A stretch of 64,000 bases of DNA from Azolla caroliniana (lineage: Eukaryota; Plantae; Polypodiophyta): contig JBHGNT010000009.1 in NCBI GenBank assembly GCA_043228905.1, positions 4,216,001 to 4,280,000 on the forward strand, given 5' to 3'. The position numbers and the translations under genes are program-made. This document shows, piece after piece, positions 1,706 through 61,755 of this stretch; positions within the stretch are counted from its first letter, which is position 1, and each line of letters opens with the position of its first letter. A model generated the notes under the pieces. That model ran no database searches. It worked only from the letters and a program-made list of their open reading frames with translations, and was not told the origin of the DNA.

Positions 1706-2497
1706 TGTCGCGAAGAAAACCGTCCATAGGCGGAATCGGCGCACCTAGGCGTGGGAACCGGTTCTTCACGCGCGCAAGCTCCAAGTAGTACATAAAAGCG
1801 AATTAGGAGGATAATCGGCAGGAACGGGCCCTAACACAAGTGGAGACAAACACCGCGCGAACAGTCTTTTCGGTCGCGCGCGCGAGTTAAGGAACTGTAC
1901 GAGTCGGCGGCGTAACTACGCGGATGCGTGAAGAACGGAGCGGATCCCTGTCCAAAAGGGACAGGGAATAAAGCTGACATGACGGCCTGCTCATCGGCCT
2001 ATATAAGGAGCAGGAAAGAGCTGTTGCAGATATCTCGCGCAGAGAGGACGAAGTGCTGTCGGACCGTTTCTGGACGCTTCTCTCTCTGTTTCCTTCCTTC
2101 TTGAGCTCCATAGCTTTCTGTGCAGGGTTCCGAGGAGGCTCGCGCTGTTTCGAGGAATGCCCGAGTGCTTCCGGCAGCACCTCCGACCTGCTACCCCGTT
2201 TGTGCGTCGAAGCGAACAGGCATCGGCATCTGTTCGCCGGCCTGTTCGGTTGTAACCAACCTGTGCCCCATCGAGGGTTGTAGTCGTGTTAGCCATTTTG
2301 TTAATACACATATTTAGTCATTCGCATCTGTCTGTGTCGGTGTCTGTTCGCGTTCTCCGTGCTGAAGGGCCGTGTCCCCGTGTATCCCCGGTCCTGCGTA
2401 GCCGGTACTCTCTCTTTCTCCTCCCTCGCTTGCTCTTTGGTTCGAGACCCCCGCGGTCCCGCCTCGATTCCACACGCACTTGCATAATATCTCGACA
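1706..2497 (+). repeat. E1 5' LTR
   Basis: Direct repeat of 8219-9010; TG...CA termini; TATATAAG box near 2000. Confidence 0.97.
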
Positions 2498-2501
2498 TCT
2501 T

Positions 2502-2519
2502 TGGTGAACCTGACGTGAA
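2502..2519 (+). promoter_or_regulatory. E1 primer binding site, tRNA-Trp (one mismatch)
   Basis: TGGTGAACCTGACGTGAA. Sister copies read TGGTGAACCCGACGTGAA, the complement of the plant tRNA-Trp 3' end as I recall it (...TTCACGTCGGGTTCACCA). Confidence 0.85.
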
Positions 2520-2541
2520 AGAGGCGGCAGAAGAGCAGAAG

Positions 2542-4668
2542 ATGAGGGGGTCGGATCTCGCAGAGGCCATGGCTTCGGCCGTGGATCGGATTGTAAACGC
2601 GCGCGAGATCACCGGTGCCCTCGACAGAGCTATTGAGGCGGTCGTCGGCACGATCGGCCGGTTCGATGGGAAGGATGCCACGAAGTATTTGGCGTCCTAC
2701 GGTGCAGAGATGCTGATGCGGGACATTCCGGAAGAAAGGCGTCTTGCCGGATTTCCCCGAGTGGCGATGCCGAGCATCCATGCGGAGGTGCTCGAGGTGC
2801 GGACGGAGAGCCGTACCTGGGAGGAGTTCGAAGGTCGGCTCCTAGAGAAATACGGGCTGGACGACGCGCTCCGGCTTTCGAAGCGAAGGTTCATGGAATG
2901 GGTGGAGTCCCCGGGGAAGGGAAGAAACGCGTCGGCGCTCCTCCGGGAGTTCGAGGAAAACTTTGCGCGCCTTTCGGCGCTCGACCGAACCATCCTGGAC
3001 ACGAGCCGGGTCTTGCTGTTTGTCAAGTCGGTCGACGAACGGGATCGGGAGCACGTGGGCCTCTTGCTGGAAACCGAAGACGGGCTCACTACCGACTGGG
3101 CGGCTGTCAGGAAGGTCTGTGGCCGTTTCGACAAACGGCGAGAATGGGCGGATAACGGTGCAACCGGGTCGGGCTCGGTCGCAGCAAGGAAGCTCGAACC
3201 AGCGCCACAGGTGCGAAAGGAAGAGACCCGAGAGTGGTTGGATACCGGTTCGGCTTCGACCGGCGTAGTCAGAGGCTCAACCGGAGGAGCGGCGCTGGAG
3301 GAATTGACGAAGGCGATAAAGGACCTCCAAATCGCGCAGGCCCGAAGGGAAGGAGGCGAACCGGCTCGTGACCGACGGCCGGCGGCAGGAAACAGGTGCA
3401 TGTGGTGCGATGAAGTCGGCCACATTCGGAAGGACTGCGGCGACTTCGCGGAGGCGCTGAGGAACGGGGTGGTGTACCTGTGGGAAGGACGGGTGCATGC
3501 CAGCGACACCCGAAGGGCCCTGAGCCGAAACGACGGAAAAGGTGGTATGAAAAGGTTGATGGAAGAGGCGGCGGCCCGACACGCGGAAACCGTTCACTAC
3601 TCGGCGTCGGCCGGCATTCGAGTCGGGGGCGGCGAGGCCCGAAGGGAAAGCAAAGCCGGGTTCTGGCCGACGATGCTGGAAGGCCTTGCCGGTGCAAGGC
3701 TAAAAGGGGAGGAATCGGACCGTGCGGAGAAACGGGTACGGGAGATGACCGGGTGGAGCGACCCGGTCGAGGAAAGGACGGGCTTCGTGGAAGCCGCTTG
3801 CCAGAACTACGAGGCTCTGGTGGAAGAGAAGCAGGTGGGGAGACCCGGGACGACCGGGCCCTCACAACGATACGAGACCCGGTCCGGGCCACGACGGGAC
3901 GAAGCCGGCGGGGCCGGTACGCAAGATAAACCCCAGAAGGGCGGGTACCGTCTGGGGACGGAGATAGAAAGGACCACGGACTTACGAAAGGTCCTGGAGG
4001 AACGGATCCTCGACAGCAAGGTGGAGCTGTCGTTACGAGAGGTGCTGGGAACTGCCAAGAAGGAGTTCCACGACTCCATCGTGGACTTGGTGAAACGGAA
4101 GAGGCTGTCGACGGAGACAGAACCGGAAAGACCGGTGGAAGTGCGGACGACGCACCTAGACGACATGGCGCTGGGAGACGAGTGGGCGGAAAGCCACTAT
4201 TCGAGACCACACTGGGCCCGAGCGACCACGGAAACCCCGGTGAAGATCGGCGATGTCCAGGAACCGGTGATAGCTTTGGTGGACCACGGATCGGAGATCA
4301 ATTTGATGTCCATGGACTTCTATAAGAAGGGCAAATGGCCGATCAACACCAAGCACGGGTGGAAAATAAGGGCAGCAACGCGCGCCACCGAGGAACTGCA
4401 CGGGGCCTGTCCGAATGTGCGAGTCAAGATCGGCGACGTCGAGATTGACCAGCACTTCTTCGTGCAGGAGACGTCTTCGCATCCGGTCATTCTGGGAGAG
4501 CCGTACATCACGGCGGCGCGAATGGAGACCAAAGTGCTGGACAATGGTTCGGCCTACGCAAGGGTCAAAAGCCAAGACGGGCGCCATTCGGTCCAGTTTC
4601 TGACGGTACGGCCGAACCACGAACGTAACCGCGATTCCCTCGGTTCCGAAAACCGAGAGGATTTTTAG
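2542..4668 (+). CDS. gag: E1 ORF1: Gag, CCHC zinc knuckle and aspartic protease
   Basis: Open frame from the first ATG at 2542. CMWCDEVGHIRKDC knuckle, ALVDHGSEINLM protease active-site motif, VILGEPY protease C-terminal motif. Confidence 0.92.
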   Translation: MRGSDLAEAMASAVDRIVNAREITGALDRAIEAVVGTIGRFDGKDATKYLASYGAEMLMRDIPEERRLAGFPRVAMPSIHAEVLEVRTESRTWEEFEGRLLEKYGLDDALRLSKRRFMEWVESPGKGRNASALLREFEENFARLSALDRTILDTSRVLLFVKSVDERDREHVGLLLETEDGLTTDWAAVRKVCGRFDKRREWADNGATGSGSVAARKLEPAPQVRKEETREWLDTGSASTGVVRGSTGGAALEELTKAIKDLQIAQARREGGEPARDRRPAAGNRCMWCDEVGHIRKDCGDFAEALRNGVVYLWEGRVHASDTRRALSRNDGKGGMKRLMEEAAARHAETVHYSASAGIRVGGGEARRESKAGFWPTMLEGLAGARLKGEESDRAEKRVREMTGWSDPVEERTGFVEAACQNYEALVEEKQVGRPGTTGPSQRYETRSGPRRDEAGGAGTQDKPQKGGYRLGTEIERTTDLRKVLEERILDSKVELSLREVLGTAKKEFHDSIVDLVKRKRLSTETEPERPVEVRTTHLDDMALGDEWAESHYSRPHWARATTETPVKIGDVQEPVIALVDHGSEINLMSMDFYKKGKWPINTKHGWKIRAATRATEELHGACPNVRVKIGDVEIDQHFFVQETSSHPVILGEPYITAARMETKVLDNGSAYARVKSQDGRHSVQFLTVRPNHERNRDSLGSENREDF

Positions 4669-4724
4669 AGAGGACTGCCAAGGCGTGGGGCCGCGACAGT
4701 CCGGATGCTCTGGGAAACCCCCAC
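4659..4724 (+). promoter_or_regulatory. Predicted -1 ribosomal frameshift signal (G GAU UUU, 6-nt spacer, stem/pseudoknot)
   Basis: GGATTTT at 4659-4665 directly precedes the ORF1 stop TAG, and the -1 frame is open into pol. Stem GGACTG (4672-4677) / CAGTCC (4697-4702); loop GTGGGG is complementary to CCCCAC (4719-4724). Confidence 0.8.
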
Positions 4725-7700
4725 ATCTGTACGATAAAACCGTGTACAATAGGTAGGAAATTTTGCTTCTCCGACAGCGGAGCATGTACGATGGTCGGCA
4801 TCACCGGCCGAGAGAAAACAAAGACGGAGGGGAGACTTCGGGCGTGCGGAGTTCTCGGCCCTGACGAAGGAATCAACGGAGCCGTGGAGGCAGTCTCCTT
4901 CGACGACACCTTGGGGATGCTGGGGAAGGTAGTCGAAGAAGACCTTAACGAAGACCGGACGATACCGGTATGTTCCGAAGAAATGTACGAAGTCATCGCG
5001 GACTTCGGTCGAGGGCTCGAGTCGGAACGGACGGCCCGAGTGAGCACCAAGTACAAGACGGTGGACCGGAAGGTGAGGCCAGTTGCGGCGCCCTTACCGG
5101 AGGGCAGCGAATCCCGAATCAAAGGGGTTGCATCGGACCCCAGCTTACGAGATCCGGCCTGCATAGGACACACCTTCACCAACGAGACGCTCCGCGAGCT
5201 GAAGATCGGTGGGGGCGGGTTCCTACTGCCGATGGAGGAAGACCGGTTTCGGAGAATGCTCGGAAGGCACGGGAAAGCCTTCGCATTCTCACCGGAGGAA
5301 ATCGGGTGCGTAGACCCGACGATCGTAGAGCCCATGGTGATGTTCACGGTACCGCATGTACCGTGGAATCTCAAGCCAATTTCGGTTCCGAGAGCTCACA
5401 TCCCGAAGTTGATGGAGCTGTTGAAGCAGAAAGTTGATATGGGCATTCTCGAGCCGTCGAGCGCCCCGTATTCAAACCGCTGGTTTACCGTGCCAAAGAA
5501 AAACGGATCATTGCGCTTCATTCAGGACCTGCAGCCGGTCAATAGAGTGACCATTCGGAATGCAGGGATCGGACCGACCATAGACGAGTTCGCGGAGGCC
5601 TTCGCCGGAAGGTCGATTTACTCGGTCGGTGATCTATACTCAGGGTATGACCAGTTCCAGCTAGCCGTGGAGAGCAGAGACATCACGACGATGCGAACTC
5701 CCCTCGGCCTCGTGCGGATGTGTACGCTGCCGCAAGGAGGGACCAACTCGGTGGCCCACATGGTGAATGCAATGAACAAGGTGCTGAGGGACTGCATCCC
5801 GGACATCACCATGCCGTTTCTAGACGACATCCCGATCAAGGGATGCCCGGTAGAAGAGAGGGACGAGACGATCGGGCCGGACGGATGCCGGCGATTCGTG
5901 GTAATGCACATCGACGACTGCGAGAAGGTGCTGCAAAGGCTAGAGGATGCGAGGCTCACCTTCTCGGGGGAGAAATCAGCCTTCGGGCAGTCGGAAATCA
6001 TGGTGGTCGGACACTTATGTGGGCCATATGGCCGGAAACCGTCTCCGGCAAAGGTAGAAGCCATCTCCGCGATGAAGCCCGTCTGCGGCTCGGTCACGGA
6101 AGTACGAAGATTCCTGGGGGCATGCGCATTCTACCACATATGGATCCCGCATTACGCCCACGTTGCGGAGCCGCTATACGGACTATTGAGGAAAGGGCGA
6201 AGATTCGAATGGCTAGACGAGCACACGGAGTCGGTCCGGAAGCTGAAGGAGGCTCTTTCGGCAGCACCGGCGCTCCGGAAGGCCGTCTACAGGAAGGGCA
6301 CCCCAGTGTACATAACGGTTGACACGAGTCCGACCGGAATCGGGTGGGTCGTCAACCAAGAAGACGAGGACGGCAATCGGTTTCCGATCCGATTCGGCGC
6401 GACGGTCCTCAGCGAACGGCAGCGAGGATACGCCCAGGTTAAACGCGAACTCTGGGGCATCGTTTCGGCGGTAAAGGCCGACAAGGACTATCTGATCGGG
6501 ACAGAGGTAATCATAGAGACGGACTGCATGCCGATTCTCGGCATGGTTTCCGGATGCGCGACGCCGGACCTGGCAATGCTCAGGTGGATAGCGTACATCA
6601 AGTCCCTGGACCCGGAAATACGACACATTTCCGGGAAAGACAACGCCATGGCCGACATGCTTTCAAGGGCGAGATTCGATGACGAGGGCGGCATGGTTTC
6701 GGAGGACGAAGAGGTCGGCGTGGACTTCTTCGAGACTGCGTATGTAACAACCGACGGAACAAGCACTCCGGCGCTTAACGACTTCGACGCGAGCAAGTAC
6801 GACGGGGAGTGGCTGCAGATCGGTGGGTTTTTGAAGACAATGACGCCCGATGCGTCGTGGACGAAGGACGAGGCCAACCGGATCCGGAAGAAAGCGTACC
6901 GGTTCTTTCTCCGGGACGGCTACCTATGGAAGCACCCGAAGAAGAGGGACGGCGCTCCGCTCCGGGTGGTGGCGATGAAGGAAGAACAGGAGGAGCTGCT
7001 GACGGCCTACCACGACAGCCCTTGGGCTGGACACCGTGGGACGTGGGCTACGTTTGAGAAACTGAAGGGGAAGTATTGGTGGTCGGGGCAGTACCGGGAC
7101 GTGCATCGGTTCGTGACAACTTGCGAGAGCTGTCAGATGCACTCCATAGTCCGACACCGGGACGAGCTTCACCCTACGTACCCTCCGACCATCCATTTCA
7201 AATGGATGGTAGATCTGGTGACGATGCCAATGGGGGTAGGACAGATGCGGTACCTGGTCCTAGCACGGGAGGATCTGACGAACCAGGTGGAAGGCTGAGC
7301 CCTCCTGAACAAAACGACCGCGGCCGTATGTCGATTCCTAATCGAGGACGTGATATGCCGGTACGGGTGCGTCGGGAAGATCGTGGCTGATCGAGGGGAG
7401 TTGGACACCGAAGAAGCCGCGGAGCTGTTCGACCGGCTCGGAGTTAAGCTCTCGCTCACCACTGCGTACAATCCGGAGGCGAATGGGAAGGTGGAGCGCG
7501 GACACGGGCCGATCGTCAAGGCGTTGGTTCGGGCATGCGGAGGCCAAGTCGGTAACTGGCCGCGACTGCTACCTTATGCTTTGTGGGCAGACCGGACCAC
7601 GCACAGTTCGGTAACCGGGTACATGCCGACGGAGCTCATGTTCGGCCAGAAGCCGATCATGCCGATGGAACGGACGATCTCCTCATGGGCAACGGTCGAT

Positions 7701-8147
7701 TGGAGGGACGAGATGAGCCGGGAGGAGTTGTTGGCCGCGCGTATACGACAACTCGAGCGGAGACCGGAGGACGTGGAACTGGCTACGGAGAGGCTCCGGG
7801 TGGCGAGGGCAAAGAACAAAGCCAGGTTCGACCGAACGCACCGGCTCCGACCGAAGAAGATCGAAGAAGGTGACTGGGTGCTCGTCTACGACAGCAGTCT
7901 CGACAACCAGCACCGAGCTACAAGGAAGTTCGCACGTAGGTGGTTCGGGCCTTATGTGGTACGGAGCGCCAATGACAACGGGACATATCACCTGGCGGAA
8001 CTTGACGGCACGAGAGTGGCGATACCGGTTGCAGGGAAGCGGATCAAAGCGTTCAAGAAGCGACATGACGACGAGCCGGACCCGGCTCTCCTAGTCAGCA
8101 GTGACGGACGATCCGGAAACGAGGAAGAACCGACGGGCGAGGAATGA
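4659..8147 (+). pseudogene. pol: E1 ORF2 pol (RT-RNaseH-integrase) with one premature stop in the integrase
   Basis: LPQGGTNS and PFLDD RT motifs, TVDTSPTGIG RNase H, H-H-C-C and D,D,E integrase, WFGPY. In-frame TGA at 7296-7298 where E2 has CGG; ORFs 4791-7298 and 7350-8147 are in the same frame. Confidence 0.93.
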
Positions 8148-8218
8148 AGACGGGCCGGTTTTCTCCGTCCCAACTCTCTTGGCGCATACCGGAGGATGCG
8201 CGGTTAGGTGGGGGCGGA

Positions 8219-9010
8219 TGTCGCGAAGAAAACCGTCCATAGGCGGAATCGGCGCACCTAGGCGTGGGAACCGGTTCTTCACGCGCGCAAGCTCCAAGTA
8301 GTACATAAAAGCGAATTAGGAGGATAATCGGCAGGAACGGGCCCTAACACAAGTGGAGACAAACACCGCGCGAACAGTCTTTTCGGTCGCGCGCGCGAGT
8401 TAAGGAACTGTACGAGTCGGCGGCGTAACTACGCGGATGCGTGAAGAACGGAGCGGATCCCTGTCCAAAAGGGACAGGGAATAAAGCTGACATGACGGCC
8501 TGCTCATCGGCCTATATAAGGAGCAGGAAAGAGCTGTTGCAGATATCTCGCGCAGAGAGGACGAAGTGCTGTCGGACCGTTTCTGGACGCTTCTCTCTCT
8601 GTTTCCTTCCTTCTTGAGCTCCATAGCTTTCTGTGCAGGGTTCCGAGGAGGCTCGCGCTGTTTCGAGGAACGCCCGAGTGCTTCCGGCAGCACCTCCGAC
8701 CTGCTACCCCGTTTGTGCGTCGAAGCGAACAGGCATCGGCATCTGTTCGCCGGCCTGTTCGGTTGTAACCAACCTGTGCCCCATCGAGGGTTGTAGTCGT
8801 GTTAGCCATTTTGTTAATACACATATTTAGTCATTCGCATCTGTCTGTGTCGGTGTCTGTTCGCGTTCTCCGTGCTGAAGGGCCGTGTCCCCGTGTATCC
8901 CCGGTCCTGCGTAGCCGGTACTCTCTCTTTCTCCTCCCTCGCTTGCTCTTTGGTTCGAGACCCCCGCGGTCCCGCCTCGATTCCACACGCACTTGCATAA
9001 TATCTCGACA
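8219..9010 (+). repeat. E1 3' LTR
   Basis: Direct repeat of 1706-2497, preceded by the PPT. Confidence 0.97.
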
Positions 9011-9364
9011 ACGTGGAAAACCCTAAATGGGAAAAACCACGGGAGTCCTCAAACTCCAACTATCACTATAAACAGAGATGTACAATGGTGAAGCTACAAG
9101 GCAACAACCTTGAGCTCACTGTCTTCGCCACAGGCGGCGGTAATACACAGAGGCAACGACCTCTTCGTCTCTCTCTCTCTCTCTCTCTCGGCTGCTCTCT
9201 TCACTCCCTCTAAGTGGAAAACAGAAAAATGAGCAACACTTACAAAACTGTTTGCCCTAAGTCATATTTATACACATATGACTTTCGGGCTATTTACAAA
9301 TATAGCTTCAAGGGCCCTTGGCAAACATATTCACAAATATGTCCCCGCATCCGGATCTCTCTCC

Positions 9365-27993: not shown

Positions 27994-30120
27994 ATGAGGG
28001 GGTCGGATCTCGCGGAGGCCATGGCTTCGGCTGTGGATCGGATTGTAAACGCGCGCGAGAGCACCGGTGCCCTCGACAGAGCTATTGAGGCGGTCGTCGG
28101 CACGATCGGCCGGTTCGATGGGAAGGATGCCACGAAGTACTTGGCGTCCTACGGTGCAGAGATGCTGATGCGGGACATTCCGGAAGAAAGGCGTCTTGCC
28201 GGATTTCCCCGAGTAGCGATGCCAAGCATCCATGCGGAGGTGCTCGAGGTGCGGACGGAGAGCCGTACCTGGGAGGAGTTCGAAGGTCGGCTCCTAGAGA
28301 AATACGGGCTGGACGACGCGCTCCGGCTTTCGAAGCGAAGGTTCATGGAATGGGTGGAGTCCCCGGGGAAGGGAAGAAACGCGTCGGCGCTCCTCCGGGA
28401 GTTCGAGGAAAACTTTGCGCGCCTTTCGGCGCTTGACCGAACCATCCTGGACACGAGCCGGGTCTTGCTGTTTGTCAAGTCGGTCGACGAGCGGGATCGG
28501 GAGCAAGTGGGCTTCTTGCTGGAAACCGAAGACGGGCTCACTACCGACTGGGCGGCTGTCAGGAAGGTCTGTGGCCGTTTCGACAAACGGCGAGAATGGG
28601 CGGATAACGGGGCGACCGGGTCGGGCTCGGTCGCAGCAAGGAAGCTCGAACCAGCGCCACAGGTGCGCAAAGAAGAGACCCGGGAGTGGTTGGAAACCGG
28701 TTCGGCTTCGACCGGCGTAGTCAGAGGCTCAACCGGAGGAGCGGCGCTGGAGGAATTGACGAAGGCGATAAAGGACCTCCAAATCGCGCAGGCCCGAAGG
28801 GAAGGAGGCGAACCGGCTCGTGACCGACGGCCGGCGGCAGGAAACAGGTGCATGTGGTGCGATGAAGTCGGCCACATTCGGAAGGACTGCGGCGACTTCG
28901 CGGAGGCGCTGAGGGACAGGGTGGTGTACCTGTGGGAAGGACGGGTGCATGCCAGCGACACCCGAAGGGCCCTGAGCCGAAACGACGGAAAAGGTGGTAT
29001 GAAAAGGTTGATGGAAGAGGCGGCGGCCCGACACGCGGAAACCGTCCACTACTCGGCGTCGGCCGGCATTCGAGTCGGGGGCGGCGAGGCCCGAAGGGAA
29101 AGCAAAGCGGGATTCTGGCCGACGATGCTGGAAGGCCTTGCCGGTGCAAGGCTTAAAGGGGAGGAATCGGACCGTGCGGAGAAACGGGTACGGGAGATGA
29201 CCGGGTGGAGCGACCCGGTCGAGGAAAGGACGGGCTTCGTGGAAGCTGCTTGCCAGAACTACGAGGCTCTGGTAGAAGAGAAGCGGGTGGGGAGACCCGG
29301 GACGACCGGGCCCTCACAACGATACGAGACCCGGTCCGGGCCACGACGGGACGAAGCCGGCGGGGCCGGTACGCAAGATAAACCCCAAAAGGGCGGGTAC
29401 CGTCTGGGGACGGAGATAGAAAGGACCACGGACTTACGAAAGGTCCTGGAGGAACGGATCCTCGACAGCAAGGTGGAGCTGTCGTTACGAGAGGTGCTGG
29501 GAATCGCCAAGAAGGAGTTCCACGACTCCATCGTGGACTTGGTGAAACGGAAGAGGCTGTCGACGGAGACAGAACCGGAAAGACCGGTGGAAGTGCGGAC
29601 GACGCACCTAGACGATATGGCACTGGGAGACGAGTGGGCGGAAAGCCACTATTCGAGACCACACTGGGCCCGAGCGACCACGGAAACCCCGGTGAAGATC
29701 GGCGATGTCCAGGAACCGGTGATAGCTTTGGTGGACCACGGATCGGAGATCAATTTGATGTCCATGGACTTCTATAAGAAGGGCAAATGGCCGATCAATA
29801 CCAAGCACGGGTGGAAAATAAGGGCAGCAACGCGCGCCACCGAGGAACTGCACGGGGCCTGTCCGAATGTGCGAGTCAAGATCGGCGACGTCGAGATTGA
29901 CCAGCACTTCTTCGTGCAGGAGACGTCTTCGCATCCGGTCATTCTGGGAGAGCCGTACATCACGGCGGCGCGAATGGAGACCAAAGTGCTGGACAATGGT
30001 TCAGCCTACGCGAGGGTCAAAAGCCAAGACGGGCGCCATTCGGTCCAGTTTCTGACGGTAAGGCCGAACCACGAACGTAACCGCGATTCCCTCGGTTCCG
30101 AAAACCGAGAGGATTTTTAG
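27994..30120 (+). CDS. gag: E2 ORF1: Gag, zinc knuckle, protease (intact)
   Basis: Uninterrupted ORF, near-identical to E1 ORF1. Confidence 0.94.
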   Translation: MRGSDLAEAMASAVDRIVNARESTGALDRAIEAVVGTIGRFDGKDATKYLASYGAEMLMRDIPEERRLAGFPRVAMPSIHAEVLEVRTESRTWEEFEGRLLEKYGLDDALRLSKRRFMEWVESPGKGRNASALLREFEENFARLSALDRTILDTSRVLLFVKSVDERDREQVGFLLETEDGLTTDWAAVRKVCGRFDKRREWADNGATGSGSVAARKLEPAPQVRKEETREWLETGSASTGVVRGSTGGAALEELTKAIKDLQIAQARREGGEPARDRRPAAGNRCMWCDEVGHIRKDCGDFAEALRDRVVYLWEGRVHASDTRRALSRNDGKGGMKRLMEEAAARHAETVHYSASAGIRVGGGEARRESKAGFWPTMLEGLAGARLKGEESDRAEKRVREMTGWSDPVEERTGFVEAACQNYEALVEEKRVGRPGTTGPSQRYETRSGPRRDEAGGAGTQDKPQKGGYRLGTEIERTTDLRKVLEERILDSKVELSLREVLGIAKKEFHDSIVDLVKRKRLSTETEPERPVEVRTTHLDDMALGDEWAESHYSRPHWARATTETPVKIGDVQEPVIALVDHGSEINLMSMDFYKKGKWPINTKHGWKIRAATRATEELHGACPNVRVKIGDVEIDQHFFVQETSSHPVILGEPYITAARMETKVLDNGSAYARVKSQDGRHSVQFLTVRPNHERNRDSLGSENREDF

Positions 30121-33599: not shown

Positions 33600-34664
33600 A
33601 GACGGGCCGGTTTTCTCCGTCCCAACTCTCTGGCGCATACCGGAGGATGCGCGGTTAGGTGGGGGCGGATGTCGTGAAGAAAACCGTCCATAGGCGGAAT
33701 CGGCGCACCTAGGCGTGGGTACCGGTTCTTCACGCGCGCAAGCTCCAAGTTGTGCATAGAAGCGAGTTAGGAGGATAACCGGCAGGAACGGGCCCTAACA
33801 CAAGTGGAGACAAAGACCGCGCGAACAGTCTTTTCGGTCGCGCGCGCGAGCAAAGGGACTGTACGAGTCGGCGGCGTAACTACGCGGACGCGTTGTCGGG
33901 GTTGCTACGCCCTTGCGTGCTGAAAGGAGGAGGGACCACGGGGGTCTTGGACCGAAGAGCAAGAGAGAGAGAGGAGAAGGAGAGACCCGATTACACAGAA
34001 CCGAAGATTGCACAGGGACACGGCCCAACAAACAGAGATCACAAACAAACGCCGACACAGATGGACGCAACCACGGAAGATATGTACTTATGAATGCAAG
34101 AAAATAACAGCTAAAGTGTTACAACCCTCGGTGGGGCACGAAATAGATACTAACGAAAACGAACAGGGCGGCGAACAGATGCCGACCCCTGTACGTCGCG
34201 ACGCACGGAAAGGGGAAAACAGGTCGGAGGTGCTGCAGGACGCACTCGGGGCGTTCCACGGAACAGCGCAAGCCTCCTCGAAACCTGCACAGGTACGCGG
34301 TGGAGCAGAAGACAGAGAGAGCAGGAGTGAGAGAGGAGCTTCGAAATCGGTTCGGCAGCACTTCGTCCTCTCTGCGCGAGATGTCTCACTTCTATTCTCC
34401 CTCTTCCTTTTATAGCTCGTCAAGAGGCCGTTTGGCATTAACTGCATACCAACCGAATCTACCCACCTAGGATCCTCGTATGTACCTACTTCGTCCTTAG
34501 GTACTTCTTGGCGCGCGTGTGCGTGTAGAGCCGTTTCCCCCCCCCACGCCTTGTTCCTCCGATTCCCCCGGTGGGCGGTTTTCTTCACGACATCCGCCCC
34601 CACCTAACCGCGCATCCACCGGCATGCGCCAAATTAAGTTGGCACGGAGAAAACCGGCCCGTCT

Positions 34665-42228: not shown

Positions 42229-45200
42229 TCACGACATTCGCCCCCACCTAACCGCGCATTCACCGGTATGCGCCAAAATTGGTTTCTGGTTGGAGAAAAC
42301 CGGTCTGGGTTCCGTTTCTTTGTCCATCGGTTCGCCCTCCGTTTCAGACTGTTCGTCTTCGCTGTCCAGGCCTCTTAGATCCGGTTCATCGTCGTGGAGT
42401 TTCTTGAATGCTTTGACCCGCTCCCCTGCTACCGGCATCGCCATCCTCGTACTGTCGAGTTCCTCCAGGTGATACGTCCCGTTGTCGTTGGCGCTTGTTA
42501 CCACGTAAGGCTCGAACCACCGGTTCGCGAACTTCCGTGTTGCTCGGTGCTGGTTGTCGAGGCTGTTGTCGTAGACTAGCACCCAGTTGCCTTCCTCGAT
42601 TTTCTTTGGTCGGAGCCGGTGCGTCCGGTCGAACCGGGCTTTGTTCTTCATCCTCGCCGCCCGAAGTTTCTCCGCCGCTCGTTCCACGTCCTCTGGCCTC
42701 CGCTCGAGCTGCCGCATACGCGCCGCTAGCAGTTCTTCCCGACTCATTTCGTCACTCCAGTCTACTGTCTCCCAAGAGGAGATCGTCCATTCCATTGGCA
42801 TGATCAGCTTCTGTCCGAACATGAACTCTGACGGCAGGAACCCGGTTACCGAACTGTGCGTTGTCCGGTCCGCCCACAAGGCGTAAGGTAACAGCCGTGG
42901 CCAGTTCCCGACCTGGTCTCCGCATGCCCGGACTAGCGCTTTGACGATTGGCCCGTGCCCGCGCTCTACCTTCCCGTTTGCCTCCGGATTGTACGCTGTG
43001 GTGAGCGAGAGCTTGACCCCTAACCGGTTGAACAACTCCTCGGCCTCTTCGGCGTCCAACTCCCCGTGGTCAGCCACGATCTTTCCGACGCACCCGTACC
43101 GGCATATCACGTCCTCGATCAGGAACCGACACACGGCCGCGGTCGTTTTGTTCTGCAGGGCTCGGCCTTCCACTTGGTTCGTCAGGTCCTCCCGGGCCAG
43201 CACCAGATATCGCATCTGCCCTACGCCCATCGACATCGTCACCAAATATACCATCAATTTGAAGTGGATGGCCGGAGGGTATGTGGGGTGAAGCTCATCC
43301 CGATGTCGGATTATGGAGTGCACTTGACAGCTCTCACAAGTTGTCATGAACCGATGCACGTCCCGGTACAGTCCCGGCCACCAGTACTTCCCCTTCAGCT
43401 TCTTGAACGTGGCCCACATCCCACAGTGCCCAGCCCAGGGGCTGTCGTGGTAGGCCTTCAGCAATTCCTCCTGTTCCTCCTTCGTCGCCACTACTCGGAG
43501 CGGGATGCCGTTCCTCTTCTTCGGGTGCTTCCACAAGTATTCGTCCCGGAGAAAGAACCGGTACGCTTTCTTCCGGATCCGGTTGGCCTCGTCCCTTGTC
43601 CACGATGTGTCCGGCATCATTGTCCTTAAGAATCCCCCAATTTGCAGCCACTCCCCGTTGTACTTGCTCTCGTTGAAATCGTTAAGCGCCGGAGTGCTCC
43701 CCCCCTCGGTTGTTACGTAAGCCGCCTCGAAGAAGTCTACGCCGACTTCCTCGTCCTCCGAAACCATGCCGCCCTCGTCGTTGAATCGCGCCCTCGAAAG
43801 CATGTCGGCCATGGCATTGTCTTTCCCGGAAATGTGTCGTATTTCCGGATCCAGGGACTTGATGTACGCTATCCACCTGAGCATCGCCAGGTCCGGGGTT
43901 GCGCATCCGGAAACCATGCCGAGAATCGGCAGGCAGTCCGTCTCGATAATCACCTCTGTCCCAATCAGATAGTCTTTATCGGCCTTTACCACCGAAACGA
44001 TACCCCAGAGTTCGCGTTTAACCTGGGCGTATCCTCGCTGTCGCTCGTTGAGGACCTTCGCGCCGAACCGGATTGGGAACCGGATGCCGTCCTCGTCTTC
44101 TTGGTTGACGACCCATCCGATCCCGGTCGGACTCGTATCTACCTTTATGTAGACGGGAGTGCCTTTCTCGTAGACAGCCTTCCGGAGTGCTGGAGCCACA
44201 GCAAGAGCCTCCTTCATCTTTCGCACCGTCTCCGTATGCTCGTCTCGCCACTCGAATTTTCGCCCCTTTTTTAGCAACCCATATAGCGGCTCGGCAATGT
44301 GGGCGTAATGTGGGATCCATATGTGGTAGAACGCGCATGCTCCCAAGAACCTCCATACCTCCGTGACCGAGTTACAGTCGGGCTTCATTGCGGAGATGGC
44401 TTCCACCTTTGCTTGAGACGGTTTCCGGCCATACGGTCCGCATAGATGTCCGACGACCATGATCTCTGATTGCCCGAAGGCCGATTTTTCCCTAGAGACC
44501 TCTAGCCTCTGCAGCACCCTCTCGCAGTCGTCAATGTGTGTCGCCACGAATTTCCGGCATCCGTCCGGTCCGATCGTTTCGTCCTTTTCCTCCACCGGAC
44601 ATCCCTTGATTGGGATGTCATCCAAGAATGGCATGGTGATGTCTGGGATACAATCCCTCAGCACCTTGTTCATCGCATTCACCATGTGGGCCACCGAGTT
44701 CATCCCTCCCTGTGGCAGGGTACACATCCGCACTAGGCCGAGAGGAGTCCGCATCGTCGTAATGTCTCTGCTTTCTACGGCTAGTTGGAACTGATCGTAC
44801 CCCGAGTACCGATCACTGACCGAGTACATCGACCTTCCGGCGAAGGCCTCCGCGAACTCGTCTATCGTTGGTCCGATTCCTGCGTTCCGAATGGTCACTC
44901 TGTTGACCGGTTGCAGGTCTTGAATGAAGCGCAACGCCCCGTTCTTCTTCGGTACGGTAAACCACCGGTTTGAGTACGGGGCACTCGACGGTTCGAGGAT
45001 GCCCATATCAACTTTCTGCCTTAATAGCTCCATCAGCTCCGGGATGTGAGCTCTCGATACGGAAATTGGTTTGAGATTCCACGGCACATGCGGTACCGTG
45101 AATATCACCATCGGCTTCACGACTGCCGGGGCTACGCACCCGATCTCTCCCGGCGAGAATGCGAAGGCTTTCCCGTGCCTTTCGAGCATTCTCCGAAACT

Positions 45201-45801
45201 GGTCTTCTTCCGCCTGCAGTAGGAACCCGCCCCCACCTACCTTGAGCTCCCGTAGCGTTCTATCGGTGAAGGCGTGCCCTATGCAGGCCGGATCTCATAA
45301 ACTGGGGTCCGACGCGACCCCCTTGATTCGTAACTCGCTGCCCTCCGGTAAGGGTGCCGCGACTGGCCTTACCTTCCGGTCCACAGTTTTGTACTTCGTG
45401 TTAACCCGGGCCGTCCGATCTGACTCGAGCCCTCGACTGAAGTCCGCGATGACTTCATACATCTCTTCTGAACAAACCGGTATCGTCCGTTCCTCTTTAA
45501 GGCCCTCTCCGACCACCTCTCGCCATATTCCGAAGGTATCGTCGAAGGAGACCGCCTCCACGGCCCCGTTGATTTCCTCGCTGGGCCCGAGAACTCCGCA
45601 CGCCCGAAGTCGCTCTTCCAGCCTTGTCTTTTCTCAGCCTACGACGCCAACTATCGTACACCCTCCGTTGTCGGAGAAACAAAACTTCCTACTTATGGTA
45701 CAAGTTTTCATCGGTTTTGCTTCTATCGTACATTTGTGGGGTTTTCCCGGAGTGTCCGGACTGTCGCGGCCCCACGCCTTGGCAGCCCTCTCTAAAAATC
45801 C
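42229..45801 (-). pseudogene. pol: E4 pol (stop at ~45295, small in-frame deletion in RT); the frame runs through the PPT into the LTR
   Basis: 986-aa ORF at 45189-42229 plus upstream pieces; RLEVSREKS versus RLEDARLTFSGEKS in E1/E3. Confidence 0.92.
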
Positions 45802-48612: not shown

Positions 48613-49998
48613 ACGAAATTCCGTTTTAGGAACATTGTCGTCACTTATATGAATTTGATGGTAGCCCATACGGAGATCAAGTTTCGTAAAATACCGAGCT
48701 CCTTGGAGACGGTCAATTAGATTATCAGACTGGGGCAATGGATATGAATTCTTGATCGTCACTTTATTCAAGCGTCGGTAATTAATACACATACGCCATG
48801 TGCTCTCTTTCTTTTTAACTAAGAGAATTGGTGCACCCCATGGAGATGTACTATAACGTATATATCCCATTTGTAAATAGTCCTTGAGTTGCTTAGATAC
48901 CTCATCCTCTTTGGATCGACTTAAGTGATAAGGAGGTATACTTATTGGTGCAACGCCAGGTACAATCAATATCTATACGATGGTCTATATTACATTTAGG
49001 AGGTAACCCATCTAGTAGTTCACTCGGGAAAACATCACGAAAATCATTTAAGATTTCATCAAGTATTTATTGTTCAAAATATGTTAATTGAACCGAGACA
49101 TTATCGATATTGTAAACGTGAATGTTCGGATCAAGTACACAATAAAAAAGAGTAGAACAAGACAACTCGGATATTGATGGACACGAGGAAACAATCGAGA
49201 GGGATTGTTTTTTGACACATTGAATAAAATGAGTCCAGTCGTTTAGTACAAATGTAATTGAATGATGAACCCAATCAATAGATAAAGAAGAGTTTTTATT
49301 ATAGAACCAAGGATAACCCAGTATTACATCAATGGTACAAAGATTCATTACATGGAAGTCTACTTCCTCTATATAAGTGTCAATAGAAATTCCTAATGAA
49401 TGAATCGCCCTGTTGATGTATTGTACTCTTCCATCAGCCAAGTGCAATGTATAGGTGTGATCAATTACGGGATTCCCCATATCTGAACCAAACGATCATT
49501 GACAAAGTTGTCTGAGCTTCCCGAATCAAATAAAAATTGTACGGGAGATCCATTGATATACCCGTTTGCACGTAGTAAATCATTGGGATCCAATACATAG
49601 TGAGGGAAAGAACATTGGCAATTACTTAAATGATGTGTATAGACCTCAAGGACATTAGGAATCTGACCTTTATGGTCTGCAGCTTTAGCTTTGCTGTTGT
49701 GCTCTTTTCGTTGGAGCTTTCAACATTGGTCTTTTGTATGACCCTTCTTTTTGCAGAATACGCAAAAAGGATGTTATCGCTTTCAATCGCGATCCATGAA
49801 TTCGTTGGGTGTCTTGCATTTCCCAGCGAATTGCGACTACTTAGTCCCGGGTGCTTCGTTGGGTTTATTGTGATCCTTCTTCGAAGTGCGTTGATAGCGA
49901 AGAACTATTTCAACGGCCTCTTCGAAGGATTTTGGATCCTTATTGTGCACTATCCATTGATAGTCTGAATTGGGGATTCCATTGACAAAACAAGCTAT
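48613..49998 (-). pseudogene. gag-pol: G1 middle piece: gag C-terminus, protease, RT N-terminus
   Basis: FLFDSGSSDNFV protease (~49550-49500), [41 protein letters not shown]. Confidence 0.88.
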
Positions 49999-50353
49999 TG
50001 TCAAGATTCGAACTCTTGACACGACCATGTTATAATCTAGTATTATGAGTTAACCAAGATATCTAGTACTAGTTATGTATATAATTGGTCCTTATTATTT
50101 TGGTAGCATCATGTGCATAGTTGCACCCTTGTAGTATTTACTCTTGGCACATGCATGCATACCTACATGCTCTATTGTAGATTCACATGCGTGCAACAAG
50201 TGTGCATGCCATGTAGTATAAATAGAGGAGTTCACCTTGAAGGAATTCAAGGTGAACAACACCAGTTATGGAGTCTTTCCTTTAATACTATCTTCTTTCT
50301 TGTCCATTTGGTTATCTTCTTGCTTGTCTCTTGAGTTTATGATCCGTGACAGT

Positions 50354-50364
50354 TTGTTCACCTT
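50354..50364 (+). promoter_or_regulatory. Putative self-priming PBS of G2
   Basis: TTGTTCACCTT is the exact complement of AAGGTGAACAA (50249-50259), which begins 32 nt from the first base of TATAAATA (50217). Confidence 0.78.
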
Positions 50365-50401
50365 CCCATCCTCATAGCTCTTCCTCTCATAAGCTATAGC
50401 T

Positions 50402-53400
50402 ATGTCCGACTCAACTAGTGAGTTAGGCCAAATAATGGTAGCCTTACGACAACTACAGCTTGAAAATGAAGCTCTTCGAAATTCTTTACAAGAACTTCAA
50501 GTTGGTACCTCCCTATCCTCACAACCCCTGAACCCTAGTCTCCCACAACAACCTAGCCTAGAGCCCGATCTTCTACTAACATCTAGCCTAGCTTCGTCAC
50601 AGTTTCTTGAGCCTAAGGTTAGCCTCCCAGAAAAATTTGATGGAACGACGTCGCGTTTCCGAGGGTTCATCAACCAAGTTCGATTTATCATTCGGCTACA
50701 ACCTCAACGTTATGGAGATGGTCTTCGACAAGTCTGTTGCTTTACTTGATTCTGGGGCATCTTCTTGCTTCATCAAAGTTGCGTTTGCCCAAGCACATGG
50801 CGTACCTGTCGTTGGCCTCTCAAAACCCATTCCAGTTGAAGCCATCGACGGGTGCGTCCTCTCGTCAAGTGCAATTACTCAAGCTACAATCCCATTAGGG
50901 CTTCGGGTGGGCTCACACAAAGAGGAGCTCACCTTTTACCTCATCGCATCTCCTCGACATCCGATCGTCTTAGGACTAACGTGGTTGGAGGCGCACAATC
51001 CGATAGTGGATTGGTGCAACCGCTCGATCACATTTAGCAAGCCAAGATACTCGTGCAAAAGTATGAAGGTAAATTTAGTTTCCTATCCTTTGGAGATGGT
51101 CGACTCCGAATTGACTACCCCATCATCGGTCCAGGATGGGTTTGTTTGTGGCGCCATTTCTAACACACTCCATGTTATTCCCGAAAAATACCAACACTTC
51201 TCCGACGTATTTGAAAAATGTAATGCTGATCGTTTGCCTGAACACCGGCTCTACGACTATCCGATTGATCTTCAAGAAGGTGCGTGTCCACCCTTTGCTC
51301 CTCTATATGCGTTGTCTGCACCAGAGTTGAAGACCCTTCATGTGTATCTCGATGAGAACCTCGAGAAAAGCTTTATTCAACCTTCTAAGTCACCAGCCGG
51401 GGCCCAAATTTTATTTGTGAAGAAGAAGGACGGCTCTCTACGCTTATGCGTCGACTACCGAGGTCTCAACAAACTCACTGTGCGCAACCGCTATTCGCTA
51501 CCTTTGATCCCCGAACTCCTTGATCGGCTCCGAGTTGCGCGTGTCTTCTCCAAAGTTGATCTGCGTGGAGCATACACTCTAGTACGCATCAAGCCGGGGG
51601 ATGAATGGAAAACCGCATTTCGAACACGGTATGGGCATTTGGAATACAAGATAATGCCTTTTAGTCTTACTAACGCTCCCGCAGTTTGTCAACATATGAT
51701 GAACGATATTTTCCGGGAATATCTTGATATTTTTGTTGTCATTTACCTCGATGATATTCTCATTTTTTCGCCAAACATGGAGGTACACACTCGCCAAGTC
51801 CGATTAGTTCTTGCCAAACTTCACGAGCATGGCCTTTATGCCAAAGGCGAGAAATGCGAGTTCGACCGTATCTCGATCGAATTTCTGGGCTACATCATTT
51901 TGCCCACTGGCATCACCATGGATATGAAGAAGGCCTCTATCATTCAGGCGTGGGTGACTCCAAGGCGACTTAAAGATGTGCAATCCTTCCTTGGCTTCGC
52001 CAATTTTTACCGTCGCTTCATCAAGGGGTTTTCCACCCTTGCACAACCTTTTATCGCTCTCACCCATAAAGGCACTCCATTTTTATGGACCTCGGAGGCA
52101 CAAAATACGTTCGACTCACTCAAACACGCATTCATCACTACCCCGGTGCTGCTACATGCCGACCCCACAAAACCCTTCCAAGTCGAAACCGATGCCTCTG
52201 ACTTTGCCATTGGCGCCATCTTATCCCAGGAAGACGACATCAACCTAATGCACCCAGTGGCTTACTATTCCCGAAAATTTACGGCACCCGAAATCAATTA
52301 TCCCATTTACGACAAGGAGCTTGTTGCTATCATTGCTGCCTTTGAAGAATGGCAACCCTACTTGGCCGACGCACAACATCGTGTCCAAGTAGTGATTGAT
52401 CATAAAAATTTAGTTTATTTTTCCAGGACTTGTACTTTGAATCGAAGGCAGGCCCGTTGGTCGACATTTCTCGCCGACTACGATTTTGAGATCGTATTTC
52501 GACCTGGTGGCCAACATGGGAAGGCTGATGCCCTTTCTCGCCGAGCGGACCTTGCACTCTGCCCTGGGGATGTTGCTTATGCTTAACAATCTAGACGTTT
52601 GTTGAAACCCGACCAATTGCATCTTTTTTCCACTTGTATGTTGCAGGATGATTCTTTACTCCAACAAATCACTGATGCATCCAAGACCGATGCGTTCGCC
52701 AATGAGATTCGAGATATTTACAAAACCCCTCCAAGGCGACCAAAAGGAAGGATCTTGATACCTTCACCATACAAGAGGGTTTGTTGTTCCGAGATCATCT
52801 CTTATACGTCCCAGAGGGCCCATGTCGCACCTGGGTGTTGCGGGAATGCCACGATGACCGACTTGCAGGTCATTTCGGGGTCGCGAAAACCCTCGAGCTA
52901 ATCTCTCGGGGGTATTGGTGGCCACAACCAAGGAAGCTGGTCAAAGAATACATAAAGAGTTGTGAGGTTTGTGCTCACTCCAAAGCCATTCATCATCGGC
53001 CATACTGCTTACAGCCGCTTCCATGTGCTCGTCGTCCTTGGGCCTCTATCTCTATGGACCTGGTAACTGATCTACCCTTGGTCAATAGCTATGACTCGGT
53101 GTTGGTCGTTGTCGATCGGTTTACGAAGATGGCTCACTTCACTCCATGCTCCAAAACCATTTCCGGAGAAGGAATGGTGCATCTCCTACTCAACAATGTG
53201 GTACGCTTGCATGGACTCCCGGATGATGTCATCTCGGATCGCAGAGCCCAGTTTGTCTCTCACTTCTAGCAGTGCCTGCTACAAACTTTAGGCCTCTCTG
53301 TCAAGTTTTCCTCCGCTTATCACCCCCAAAATGACGGGCAAATGGAGCGTGTCAACCAAATCCTTGAGCAGTATCTTCGGTGCTCGGTTAGTTACCAACA

Positions 53401-54926: not shown

Positions 54927-56924
54927 TGTCGCTTTATTACGCGCGTGCGTGTAGAAGGGCGGAACCACAGGGGTCTTGGACTAGGGAGTGGAGGAGAAAG
55001 ATTAGCTCAAGAGGAGAAGAGAACGAATATGATATTATGATAGAAGAAGAAGATGCAATCAAGATACTCAACAAGAAGTTCTATTAAGAAATGAATGATT
55101 ACAACAAATGGTGGCCGCCATGGCCGCACCAAACGACTATATGAAAAACCCTAAAGGAAAACCCAAGAAGAAAACCGTAACCGAAACCCTAACCCTAAAA
55201 CGAAATGGGAAGAAGTAGAACCCTCGACTAAGTGGTATACCTTACTTACACAAAATAGGCAACCCCTCCACAAAGGGCGATCCCTTCCTTTGATAGAACA
55301 AGGAGAGGGATGCGTTACAATGTGGGACCAATCCCGACTTTCATGGGATCGTCTATCCCGACTTGGCTATTCTTCGGCGCCATAAAGGTGCCCTCGATAT
55401 TCACACTAAATGTACATGGGTGCGTACACACGCTGCACCCCGCCGATGTAGCCAATGTTTCCCGGTTTTCGCCTCTGGCCGAAATTCTTCACGACATCCG
55501 CCCCCACCTAACTGCACGTCCACCGGTACGTGCCAATCTGGTTGAAGGGTGAGAGATTTCGGCCGGTGAGAAACCGGTCTCCTGTGATCCGCATCTCGGC
55601 TCGCTGCCGGTTTGATCCGTCAGCTTGGAGTCTTCCTTCGTGCTCGCCTCCCCGTAGGCTCGTTCGACCCGTCGATGGGTCCTCTGCCGCGATCTCTGTA
55701 GTACGCGTTCTTCCGGTGGCCCTTGTTTGGCCGTATGAACGCCCCGCTTCCCGCCGTATGCCCGATGTCCTCCGCTTGAGGCATGCCCGTGGTGGCCCGC
55801 TTGGCCTCTGTTGTCCAATCGTGATGTCCCGATGGTGTTTCACGTCGCCTTCGTCCTTCCGCCGCCACCTTCCTTCTCCATGGTCTTACATCGCCGCGTC
55901 GGTCCGAACCGCCATGGTCTCCGGAACGGTGTGGAGGATCCCTTTCCGACGTTCCCCGAGCTCTCCTTCCTGCTCCGGCACCCCCCCCGTGTGCCACATA
56001 CCCTCGTCCGTTGTTTGGCACTGCCTGTACCGCGCTCCGGTTCATTGCACGTCTTGTCGACCCCTTTCTGGCCAGATCGTGCATCACCGCTCACCCATAT
56101 ACCGGTGTTCTTTGCATCTGAGGAACACCCCGTAGTAGCCCGCTTGGCCCTTCCCGTCTTCATGCTGCTGCAATAGGTCCTAAGTCTTCCGCTTGCCGTC
56201 GTCCCCTCGCCCCCACCAGCTTCTCATCCCGGCTTGCCGTGTCAGTCTTCGTTACTTCGACGAAGCTACGAGGATCTACGAAGCGAGTGTGGAGGATCCT
56301 CCTTCGGCCTCTCTTGCCATCCCCTGACTCCGACCCTGTGCAGTCCACTAGGCACTTGTCCCGTCGTTCCCGGCACCTCCTCTGTTCGGCACCGCCCGTG
56401 CCGAACACCGTCCCGTAGTCACACTTCGATCCGGCCCGGGATGGCCACTTGCGAGACTCTTGTTCTGTCCAAGGTGTGCCTTTCTAGTCTGACACACCTC
56501 TCCGTGTTTGCCCTTACCGGCTCCTTCCGAAACCTCGTGTTGTCGGGTCCCGTTCCCTGCCGCCACCGTCCTTCTCCCTCGGTCTCACGTTGCCACGTTG
56601 GCCGAACTGCCGGAGCCTCCGGATCGGTGTGAGGGTCCCATAGGACCGGACTCCGTTTCTATGCTTGCCGAAATTCGGGTGTCTTTTGTTTGAGTCCCTC
56701 CCGGACTCTCCTCGTGTCTTCCGCGTAGCTGGGTCCCGTTTCCCGCCGCCACCTTCCTTCTCCCTCAGTCTTACGTTGCCACGATGGCAGAACAACCGGA
56801 GTCTCCGGAACCGGTGTGAGGATCCCGTAGGACCGGACTTCCTTACGCCCATTGTCTTCGTTGTTGGGATTTTCGGTCCCTCCGGATGGGATGTCCGGAG
56901 ATGAATGACGGCAAGCCTGGTTGC

Positions 56925-61682: not shown

Positions 61683-61755
61683 AGGGGGAGTTTGTTGGGA
61701 TTTTCGGTCCCTCCGGATGGGATGTCCGGAGATGAATGACGGCAAGCCTGGTTGC

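What the first reader, a model, noticed from the sequence alone, without database searches (positions are those of the whole stretch)
8156..8235. Covarying RNA structure around the PPT with a palindromic loop (candidate dimerisation or packaging signal)
Seen: just upstream of the PPT, E1-E4 have a hairpin GCGCAT-[8 nt]-ATGCGC (E1 8182-8201). The pol-less E6 has GCACGT-[8 nt]-ACGTGC (55533-55514), which is two compensatory pair changes. All loops keep the palindrome CCGG (ACCGGT in E4 and E6). An outer helix pairs 3'UTR CGGTTTTCT (8156-8164) with AGAAAACCG at the LTR start (8227-8235). In E6 both arms carry a matching extra block, GGCCGAAAT/ATTTCGGCC (55477-55485 / 55556-55564), plus CCGGTTT/AAACCGG. 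Known: palindromic loops mediate kissing-loop genome dimerisation in retroviruses (HIV-1 DIS), but at the 5' end. Inference: this is a selected cis element for packaging, dimerisation or plus-strand priming.
Basis: partly seen in the sequence, partly recalled or inferred. Interest (0 to 1): 0.75.

Follow-up and report, generated by a model that had tools for sequence, protein, structure and literature searches.

The report
Hairpins frame retrotransposon second-strand primer
A lineage of plant jumping genes keeps a base-paired hairpin 17-18 bases before its 3' repeat and a second helix just inside that repeat, framing the purine tract, and this frame likely helps cut out the primer for the second DNA strand rather than join two RNA genomes.

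Summary
The structure is real, under selection and lineage-wide; the kissing-loop reading is weakly supported. The elements are Phygy-like Ty3/gypsy retrotransposons (NCGN target duplications 24/24, tRNA-Trp PBS 32/34). The hairpin GCRCRT-RCCGGWGG-AYGYGC precedes the LTR start in 5,454 genomic matches (control 1). It lies 17-18 nt from the LTR in 225 of 227 registered sites, while its distance to the integrase stop varies widely. Three stem pairs swap between Watson-Crick types, one at least three times independently; a compensated sub-lineage spread to 22 sites. E6's 'extra block' is the same helix with flipped pairs. The loop folds as a bulge, two C-G pairs and a GG(A/U) triloop. Half the clusters have only a 4-bp palindrome, its flanks do not covary, and several lineages lack it. 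Best reading (0.4): a PPT-processing cassette; rivals are Gag binding (0.25) and kissing dimers (0.17). RNA versus minus-strand DNA is unresolved. No Rfam match, paper or earlier scan note found for it.

The parts
1706..2497 (+). E1 5' LTR
   Evidence: 99.9% to 8219-9010; ACGT target duplication
2502..2519 (+). E1 primer binding site, complementary to the 3' 18 nt of host tRNA-Trp (one mismatch in E1, none in E2 and E3)
2488..4668 (+). E1 gag frame (DUF4100, one CCHC knuckle)
4629..8147 (+). E1 pol (RT, RNase H, integrase; no chromodomain), split by an in-frame stop
8156..8164 (+). E1 outer helix, 5' arm (3' UTR)
8182..8201 (+). E1 conserved hairpin: 6-bp stem, purine bulge, two C-G pairs, GG(A/U) triloop (predicted fold)
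8202..8218 (+). E1 17-nt spacer: GGTT tract plus G-rich polypurine tract
8227..8235 (+). E1 outer helix, 3' arm (U3 +9..+17)
8219..9010 (+). E1 3' LTR
33633..33669 (+). E2 hairpin (33633-33652) and spacer/PPT
34593..34629 (-). E3 hairpin (34610-34629) and spacer/PPT
42237..42273 (-). E4 hairpin (42254-42273; loop ends GA) and spacer/PPT
55497..55533 (-). E6 hairpin (55514-55533) and spacer/PPT
55556..55577 (-). E6 outer helix 5' arms (GGCCGAAAT 55564-55556; extension CCGGTTT 55577-55571)
55462..55485 (-). E6 outer helix 3' arms in U3 (ATTTCGGCC 55485-55477; extension AAACCGG 55468-55462)
54927..55496 (-). E6 3' LTR; E6 is a gag-only element interrupted by a copia insertion (56861-62435), with its 5' LTR beyond the window

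Best explanation
The hairpin, the 17-18 nt GGTT+polypurine spacer and a helix over the first ~20 nt of U3 form one conserved, covarying cassette at the 3' end of Phygy-like Ty3/gypsy retrotransposons, and it likely serves to cut out and hold the plus-strand primer. Shown: the cassette, selection on its pairings, the fixed spacing, and retention in gag-only elements. Inferred mechanism: during minus-strand synthesis RT melts the U3 helix, copies the PPT and pauses at the base of the GC-rich hairpin. That would place RNase H one enzyme length back, at the PPT/U3 junction. After the flanking RNA is degraded, the complementary hairpin in the minus-strand DNA would abut the primer's 5' end and help fix RT's register. 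The conserved loop letters would be read by RT or NC. Whether the working form is RNA, minus-strand DNA or both is not resolved.
For: Spacing to the LTR is 17 (188) or 18 (37) in 225 of 227 registered sites and in 99 of the first 100 genomic matches when 12-24 was allowed (hand count). The integrase-stop-to-hairpin distance runs from -88 to +203 nt in 64 clusters. Stem pairs among 79 clusters: 3:18 A-U 54 / G-C 22 / A-C 3; 5:16 A-U 68 / G-C 7 / other 4; G-C at 3:18 falls in at least 3 separate places of a 56-row integrase tree (quick tree). Pair 2:19 C-G to U-A: 22 double-change copies in the E1 loop background against 1 with the 5' change alone; the 16 fetched form one clade (support 92). U3 is paired in two lineage-specific ways: long-range helix in the 17-nt group (cognate -24.0 vs swapped -19.0 kcal/mol, 0 of 10,000 permutations, n=49) and local hairpin in the 18-nt clade (halves -9.1 vs -6.0, 0 of 10,000, n=32). 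On sequence-only alignment A3, all 8 outer pairs have double-sided changes and 0 of 500 shuffles reach the covariation score. One lineage (L163, L164, L173) has lost the loop but keeps the stem's 3' arm 18 nt from the LTR. HIV-1 RT: the two active sites are 18 nt apart on RNA:DNA, and 5'-end-directed cuts fall 13-19 nt from the RNA end (PMC3388302, section 7). RT pauses at template hairpins (PMC6088434, passage). Ty3 reuses its PPT several times (PMC5371799, passages).
Against: Ty3 RT, the nearer relative, has active sites ~13 bp apart (PMC5371799, passage), so the 17-18 match is to the wrong enzyme. The spacer is itself conserved sequence (0.62-1.0 per position), so fixed spacing could come from two conserved elements simply abutting. 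Pausing needs no conserved loop, yet G10/G11 are 82%/92% conserved. Pollom et al. judge it unlikely that RNA structure modulates PPT priming, since the PPT acts in a hybrid (PMC3616985, passage). NC helps RT through pause sites. No experiment or raw-read evidence was available.
Confidence: 0.4

Rival explanations
1. The hairpin is a 3' Gag/nucleocapsid recognition site (packaging or RNP nucleation). The single CCHC knuckle would bind the exposed GG(A/U)G, and the outer helix would present it.
For: Loop and stem are conserved in sequence, not only in pairing. GGAG is the NC-bound loop of the HIV-1 psi hairpin (PMC7599994, passages). Gag has one CCHC knuckle. Clusters with no integrase before the PPT keep the hairpin and have stronger outer helices (-28.3 kcal/mol, n=14, vs -22.3, n=35).
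Against: It does not explain the fixed distance to the LTR. Replacing the HIV-1 GGAG loop did not affect packaging. One lineage lacks the loop (L163, L164, L173). Gag-only elements need the PPT as much as a packaging signal.
Confidence: 0.25
2. One reading: the open 8-nt loop pairs through CCGG (ACCGGU in some families) with the same loop on a second genome, a 3' dimer-initiation site.
For: CCGG is intact in 54 of 79 clusters and in 4,614 genomic copies. G10/G11 conservation is not explained by the internal fold. Loop-loop duplexes are -7 to -10 kcal/mol. One cluster (L146) has the alternative palindrome TCCGGA. A family fixed for the palindrome-breaking CCAG was sought and not found (6 of 28 copies read GCCAGAGG), and CACGG loops have 0 matches in G000.
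Against: Flank pair 7:12 is A-A 32, A-U 30, G-U 7, G-A 7, C-A 2, U-A 1, so there is no covariation. CACGGAGG arose in two separate branches (L170, L179); it keeps two internal C-G pairs and kills the palindrome (-1.5 kcal/mol). 8 of 29 high-coverage contigs lack CCGG. Genome-wide CCAG (breaks a kiss) is 482 against CTGG (keeps G-U) 250, while background CpG decay is symmetric (451 C>T vs 460 G>A). HIV-1 DIS is a 6-nt palindrome, and known signals (DIS, Ty1 PAL1/2) are 5'.
Confidence: 0.17
3. An RNA-level signal for something else (export, stability or 3' processing of the genomic RNA), placed by chance next to the PPT like retroviral 3' elements (CTE, ASLV direct repeats; recalled, not from a call).
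For: It is conserved, structured, in the 3' UTR and kept by non-autonomous copies.
Against: It gives no reason for the fixed spacing or for pairing U3 +4..+20 by two different routes. G-U pairs are rare among fixed outer-helix columns (4 G-U, 13 A-C of which 7 are one inherited column, 25 other).
Confidence: 0.1
4. Mutational by-product: CpG decay plus template-switch copying keeps inverted repeats perfect without function.
For: All inner-stem swaps are transitions, several at CpG. Template switching can create and repair stems (PMC8794818, abstract). The stems are almost pure Watson-Crick.
Against: The hairpin sequence and position persist across integrases only 62-94% identical while neighbouring sequence turns over (0.3-0.6 conservation upstream). 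Template switching could explain how pairs are repaired, not why this one hairpin is kept.
Confidence: 0.08

Closest known systems
Phygy clade, non-chromovirus Ty3/gypsy (Neumann et al. 2019, PMC6317226; passages and one supplement row)
   Same: 4-bp NCGN target duplication, tRNA-Trp PBS, compact internal part nearly all coding, no chromodomain
   Different: Elements here are ~6.6-7.3 kb against 7.7-10.0 kb; no hairpin or PPT structure appeared in the passages read; placement on the REXdb tree was not tested
HIV-1 DIS and Ty1 PAL1/PAL2 dimer signals (PMC7599994, PMC6844567; passages)
   Same: Hairpin with a self-complementary loop core
   Different: 3' location; 4-nt core in about half the clusters; flanks do not covary; loop predicted to close internally; lost in some lineages
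Structured PPT/cPPT of HIV-1 and SIV (PMC3616985, passage)
   Same: PPT G-tract embedded in RNA structure
   Different: There judged a by-product of G content; here a separate hairpin and a U3 helix covary and hold a fixed distance
Ty3 bipartite PBS in U3 (PMC5371799, section 5)
   Same: Replication cis element at the 3' end of a Ty3/gypsy RNA
   Different: No excess complementarity to the non-PBS part of host tRNA-Trp in 82 clusters (0 with z <= -2)
TR-GAG elements (PMC4350172, passages), for E6
   Same: LTRs, PBS, PPT and gag only
   Different: E6 is ~4.6 kb without its insertion (TR-GAG <4 kb); no significant leader structure was found in TR-GAG1, whereas E6 has a strong 3' structure

Membership tests
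Phygy (non-chromovirus Ty3/gypsy) | 4-bp target duplication of form NCGN | tested here: met
   34 copies with both LTRs; 24 have a matching 4-bp TSD, all 24 NCGN; 0 with 5 bp
Phygy (non-chromovirus Ty3/gypsy) | PBS mainly tRNA-Trp | tested here: met
   32 of 34 within 2 mismatches of the 18-nt complement of host tRNA-Trp
Phygy (non-chromovirus Ty3/gypsy) | RT-RH-INT order, no chromodomain, internal part nearly all coding | tested here: met
Phygy (non-chromovirus Ty3/gypsy) | Size 7,656-9,968 bp (descriptive, one species) | tested here: not met
   LTR-to-LTR 5,966-6,530 plus LTR 0.63-0.81 kb in autonomous copies; hence only 'Phygy-like'
Phygy (non-chromovirus Ty3/gypsy) | Clade membership on the RT-RH-INT tree | not testable with these tools
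   No REXdb reference sequences at hand; nearest named proteins are from Riccia
DIS-type kissing loop | 6-nt self-complementary loop | tested here: not met
   ACCGGT in 25, GCCGGT in 4, xCCGGA in 25 of 79 clusters
DIS-type kissing loop | Variants keep self-complementarity | tested here: not met
   Pair 7:12 unpaired in 41 of 79, one compensated case; CACGG twice; 8 of 29 high-coverage contigs without CCGG. Against this verdict: no CCAG-fixed family found
DIS-type kissing loop | Located in the 5' leader | tested here: not met
   3' UTR, next to the PPT
DIS-type kissing loop | Loop-dependent dimer in vitro | not testable with these tools
   needs native gels
Ty3-type bipartite PBS | 3' segment complementary to primer tRNA arms | tested here: not met
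   mean z -0.28, 0 of 82 at z <= -2
Any Rfam family | Match to a covariance model | tested here: not met
   0 hits at E <= 5 in window 7900-9100; 0 at gathering score in 5 loci

The most novel reading that the evidence does not exclude
A structural ruler for plus-strand priming: a whole Ty3/gypsy lineage specifies its PPT/U3 cut not by PPT sequence alone but by a hairpin one RT length upstream, possibly working as minus-strand DNA, with a second helix gating the LTR start that evolved in two interchangeable architectures.
Probability: 0.25. Interest if true: 0.75.

Novelty: new variant of a known kind. Interest (0 to 1): 0.5.

Why it matters
Little is known about cis signals of plant LTR retrotransposons beyond PBS, PPT and LTR ends. 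This is a compact element (about 60-100 nt) with thousands of natural variants and clear covariation, shared by autonomous and gag-only elements, so it can be tested directly with short synthetic nucleic acids. If it positions RNase H, it adds a structure-based route to PPT selection, whose molecular details reviews call largely unknown (PMC3185511, abstract). If it binds Gag or kisses, it would be a rare 3' packaging or dimer signal. Either way it is a sequence marker for this lineage.

Tried and rejected
Rfam: no match. Viral contigs: 32 pattern hits, no relative. Sequencing runs: no RNA holder listed; three contig sets laid, uninformative on expression or strand. Pairing of the 3' element with host tRNA-Trp: none above shuffles. 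A lower stem joining the GGTT tract to the upstream linker is visible in some clusters but not significant overall (46 of 82 better than shuffle, p=0.34). Strand of action: inconclusive (minus strand folds better in 50 of 82 with RNA and 45 of 82 with DNA parameters; the A-C excess is mostly one inherited column). A family fixed for loop CCAG: not found; in the old family tested 6 of 28 copies read GCCAGAGG and 9 GCCGGAGG, so the 482:250 excess may be mutational (unpaired loop cytosines on the minus strand) rather than selective. CACGG loop in G000: 0. RNAalifold did not recover the outer helix or the U3 hairpin as consensus, and my fixed register for the U3 hairpin on A2 paired only 37.9% of cells because loop lengths vary; support for it rests on swap and shuffle tests. 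The careful integrase tree did not finish; the quick tree was used. One search's own/metagenome labels and de-duplication were wrong and were redone. Ten paper searches found no description of this element; subscription journals and preprint supplements were not searchable. Scan notes: none by sequence; by words and place only a different, PPT-less lineage.

Full report
Setting. The window is a nest of LTR retrotransposons. E1-E4 carry a DUF4100 gag with one CCHC knuckle and an RT-RNase H-integrase pol without chromodomain. The nearest named proteins are from the liverwort Riccia. Of 34 genomic copies with both LTRs, 24 have a matching 4-bp target duplication, all NCGN, and 32 have a PBS for host tRNA-Trp. 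Both are the listed traits of the Phygy clade (PMC6317226, supplement row). Size is below the published range and tree placement could not be tested, so I call them Phygy-like. E6 has only a gag-like frame between its LTRs.

Observation. Single copies fold only modestly better than shuffles, so the case rests on comparison.

Data set. I used 60 loci picked only by PPT+LTR start (the first 60 of 1,971 matches), 80 metagenome loci picked only by integrase (62-94% identity), 40 loci picked by the hairpin pattern and 60 best hits to E1 and E6. The last two sets are biased towards the hairpin. After de-duplication there were 231 sites (179 own genome, 52 metagenome) in 82 clusters defined on flanks without hairpin and PPT; many clusters are single, possibly decayed, copies. 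Most of the other metagenome loci end or are rearranged before a PPT. 227 sites match the 20-nt motif at 15 or more positions; the four that do not are metagenome loci (L163, L164, L173, L195). Genome-wide the pattern has 5,454 matches against 1 control.

Inner stem. Among 79 clusters pair 3:18 is A-U 54, G-C 22, A-C 3; pair 5:16 is A-U 68, G-C 7, G-U 2, A-C 2; pair 6:15 never varies. On a quick integrase tree of 56 clusters, G-C at 3:18 occurs in at least three separate places and G-C at 5:16 marks one autonomous clade whose flanks resemble E6's. A third swap, 2:19 C-G to U-A, is found in 22 copies with E1's loop against 1 copy with the 5' change alone (the 3'-only count was not searched). 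The 16 such copies fetched form one clade on dispersed contigs, so a compensated lineage transposed. All these swaps are transitions, and CpG decay or template switching (PMC8794818, abstract) may supply them. Conservation of 0.7-1.0 in the stem against 0.3-0.6 a few bases upstream still requires selection.

Loop. Energy models and RNAalifold (17-nt group) close the loop as a purine bulge, C8-G14, C9-G13 and a GG(A/U) triloop, about 1.5 kcal/mol below the open loop in E1 and E6; for the 18-nt clade RNAalifold left it open. Those internal pairs are possible in 76 and 78 of 79 clusters, the palindrome pairs 9:10 in 66 and 7:12 in 38. Half the clusters have only CCGG. CACGGAGG, which shifts the bulge and removes the palindrome, appears on two branches, and 8 of 29 high-coverage contigs lack CCGG. 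In the genome CCGG, CCAG and CTGG number 4,614, 482 and 250, while CpG decay nearby is symmetric; a kiss would tolerate CTGG better than CCAG. Against over-reading this: the family I checked for fixed CCAG was mixed, CACGG is absent from this genome, one cluster has TCCGGA, and G10/G11 stay conserved. Kissing is weakened, not excluded.

Outer structure. In the 17-nt group the 3' UTR arm and U3 pair better in own than in swapped combinations (-24.0 vs -19.0 kcal/mol, 0 of 10,000, n=49). On the sequence-only alignment all 8 outer pairs show double-sided changes, for example U-A 21 against A-U 15 at one column, and slid registers score lower (related sequences inflate the shuffle control). E6's arms are this same helix in flipped form plus an extension. 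In the clade of 28 rows (support 100) with 18-nt spacing in nearly all rows, the long-range helix is absent (2,769 of 10,000) and U3 forms its own hairpin over about nt 3-26 (mean z -2.1; halves swap 0 of 10,000). So the PPT is framed on both sides in both groups, by different means downstream.

Spacing. Hairpin base to LTR start is 17 or 18 nt in 225 of 227 sites, whereas integrase stop to hairpin varies from -88 to +203. The lineage that lost the loop keeps the stem's 3' arm at 18 nt.

Mechanism. The tight coupling to the PPT/U3 junction is what a packaging or dimer signal would not need. I therefore favour a role in making or holding the plus-strand primer (0.4): a pause at the hairpin base would put RNase H at the junction if the enzyme spans 17-18 nt, as HIV-1 RT does (PMC3388302, section 7). 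This step is inferred. Ty3 RT spans about 13 bp (PMC5371799, passage), the spacer is conserved in its own right, and others doubt that RNA structure affects PPT use (PMC3616985, passage). Gag binding to GG(A/U)G (0.25) explains the loop conservation better, and kissing (0.17) remains possible. A Ty3-like second tRNA site was tested and not found. Tests for RNA versus minus-strand DNA were inconclusive. That sequences just 5' of retroviral PPTs affect priming is recalled, not from a call.

Novelty. No Rfam family matched, ten literature searches found no description, and the scan had no note on this sequence. Papers were seen as passages or single sections, PMC8794818 as abstract, and PMC6317226 also as one supplement row. 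Structured cis elements for reverse transcription and packaging are a known kind; this is a new, lineage-wide variant at the plus-strand origin with an untested function. Interest 0.5.

Noticed in passing
window 45226-45241 (-); also L071, L083, L095, L096, L109, L124, L130, L133, L154, L190: A near copy of the PPT word lies inside pol about 3 kb upstream of the 3' LTR in several families; it could be only glycine codons, or a central PPT.
   Followed up: no
G000 C8:17.80-17.82 Mb, C16:4.99-5.11 Mb, C5:10.11 Mb: 63 matches to the tRNA-Trp 3' half, many in tandem clusters; 4 of 4 checked are tRNA-Trp genes by ARAGORN.
   Followed up: partly
window 27148-48606 and 54927-64000: Nested elements: E3 sits inside E2's 3' LTR, a copia (56861-62435) inside E6, and a chromodomain gypsy at 49996-54486.
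   Followed up: partly
L085, L213, L217, L222, L123: Gag-only elements with LTRs up to 100% identical occur in both spacing groups; some carry long frames (up to 1,428 codons) of which only the N-terminus resembles gag.
   Followed up: partly
12 of 64 clusters: The next in-frame stop lies after the hairpin start, so the hairpin overlaps the integrase frame; some of these may be decayed copies.
   Followed up: no
window 4629-4668 and 30081-30120: gag and pol frames overlap by 40 nt in different frames, suggesting frameshift expression.
   Followed up: no
same genome, other windows: Unchecked scan notes describe a different gypsy lineage with a small hairpin and a tRNA-end copy in place of the PPT, and call the host a fern; a hairpin at the plus-strand priming site may recur in this genome.
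   Followed up: no
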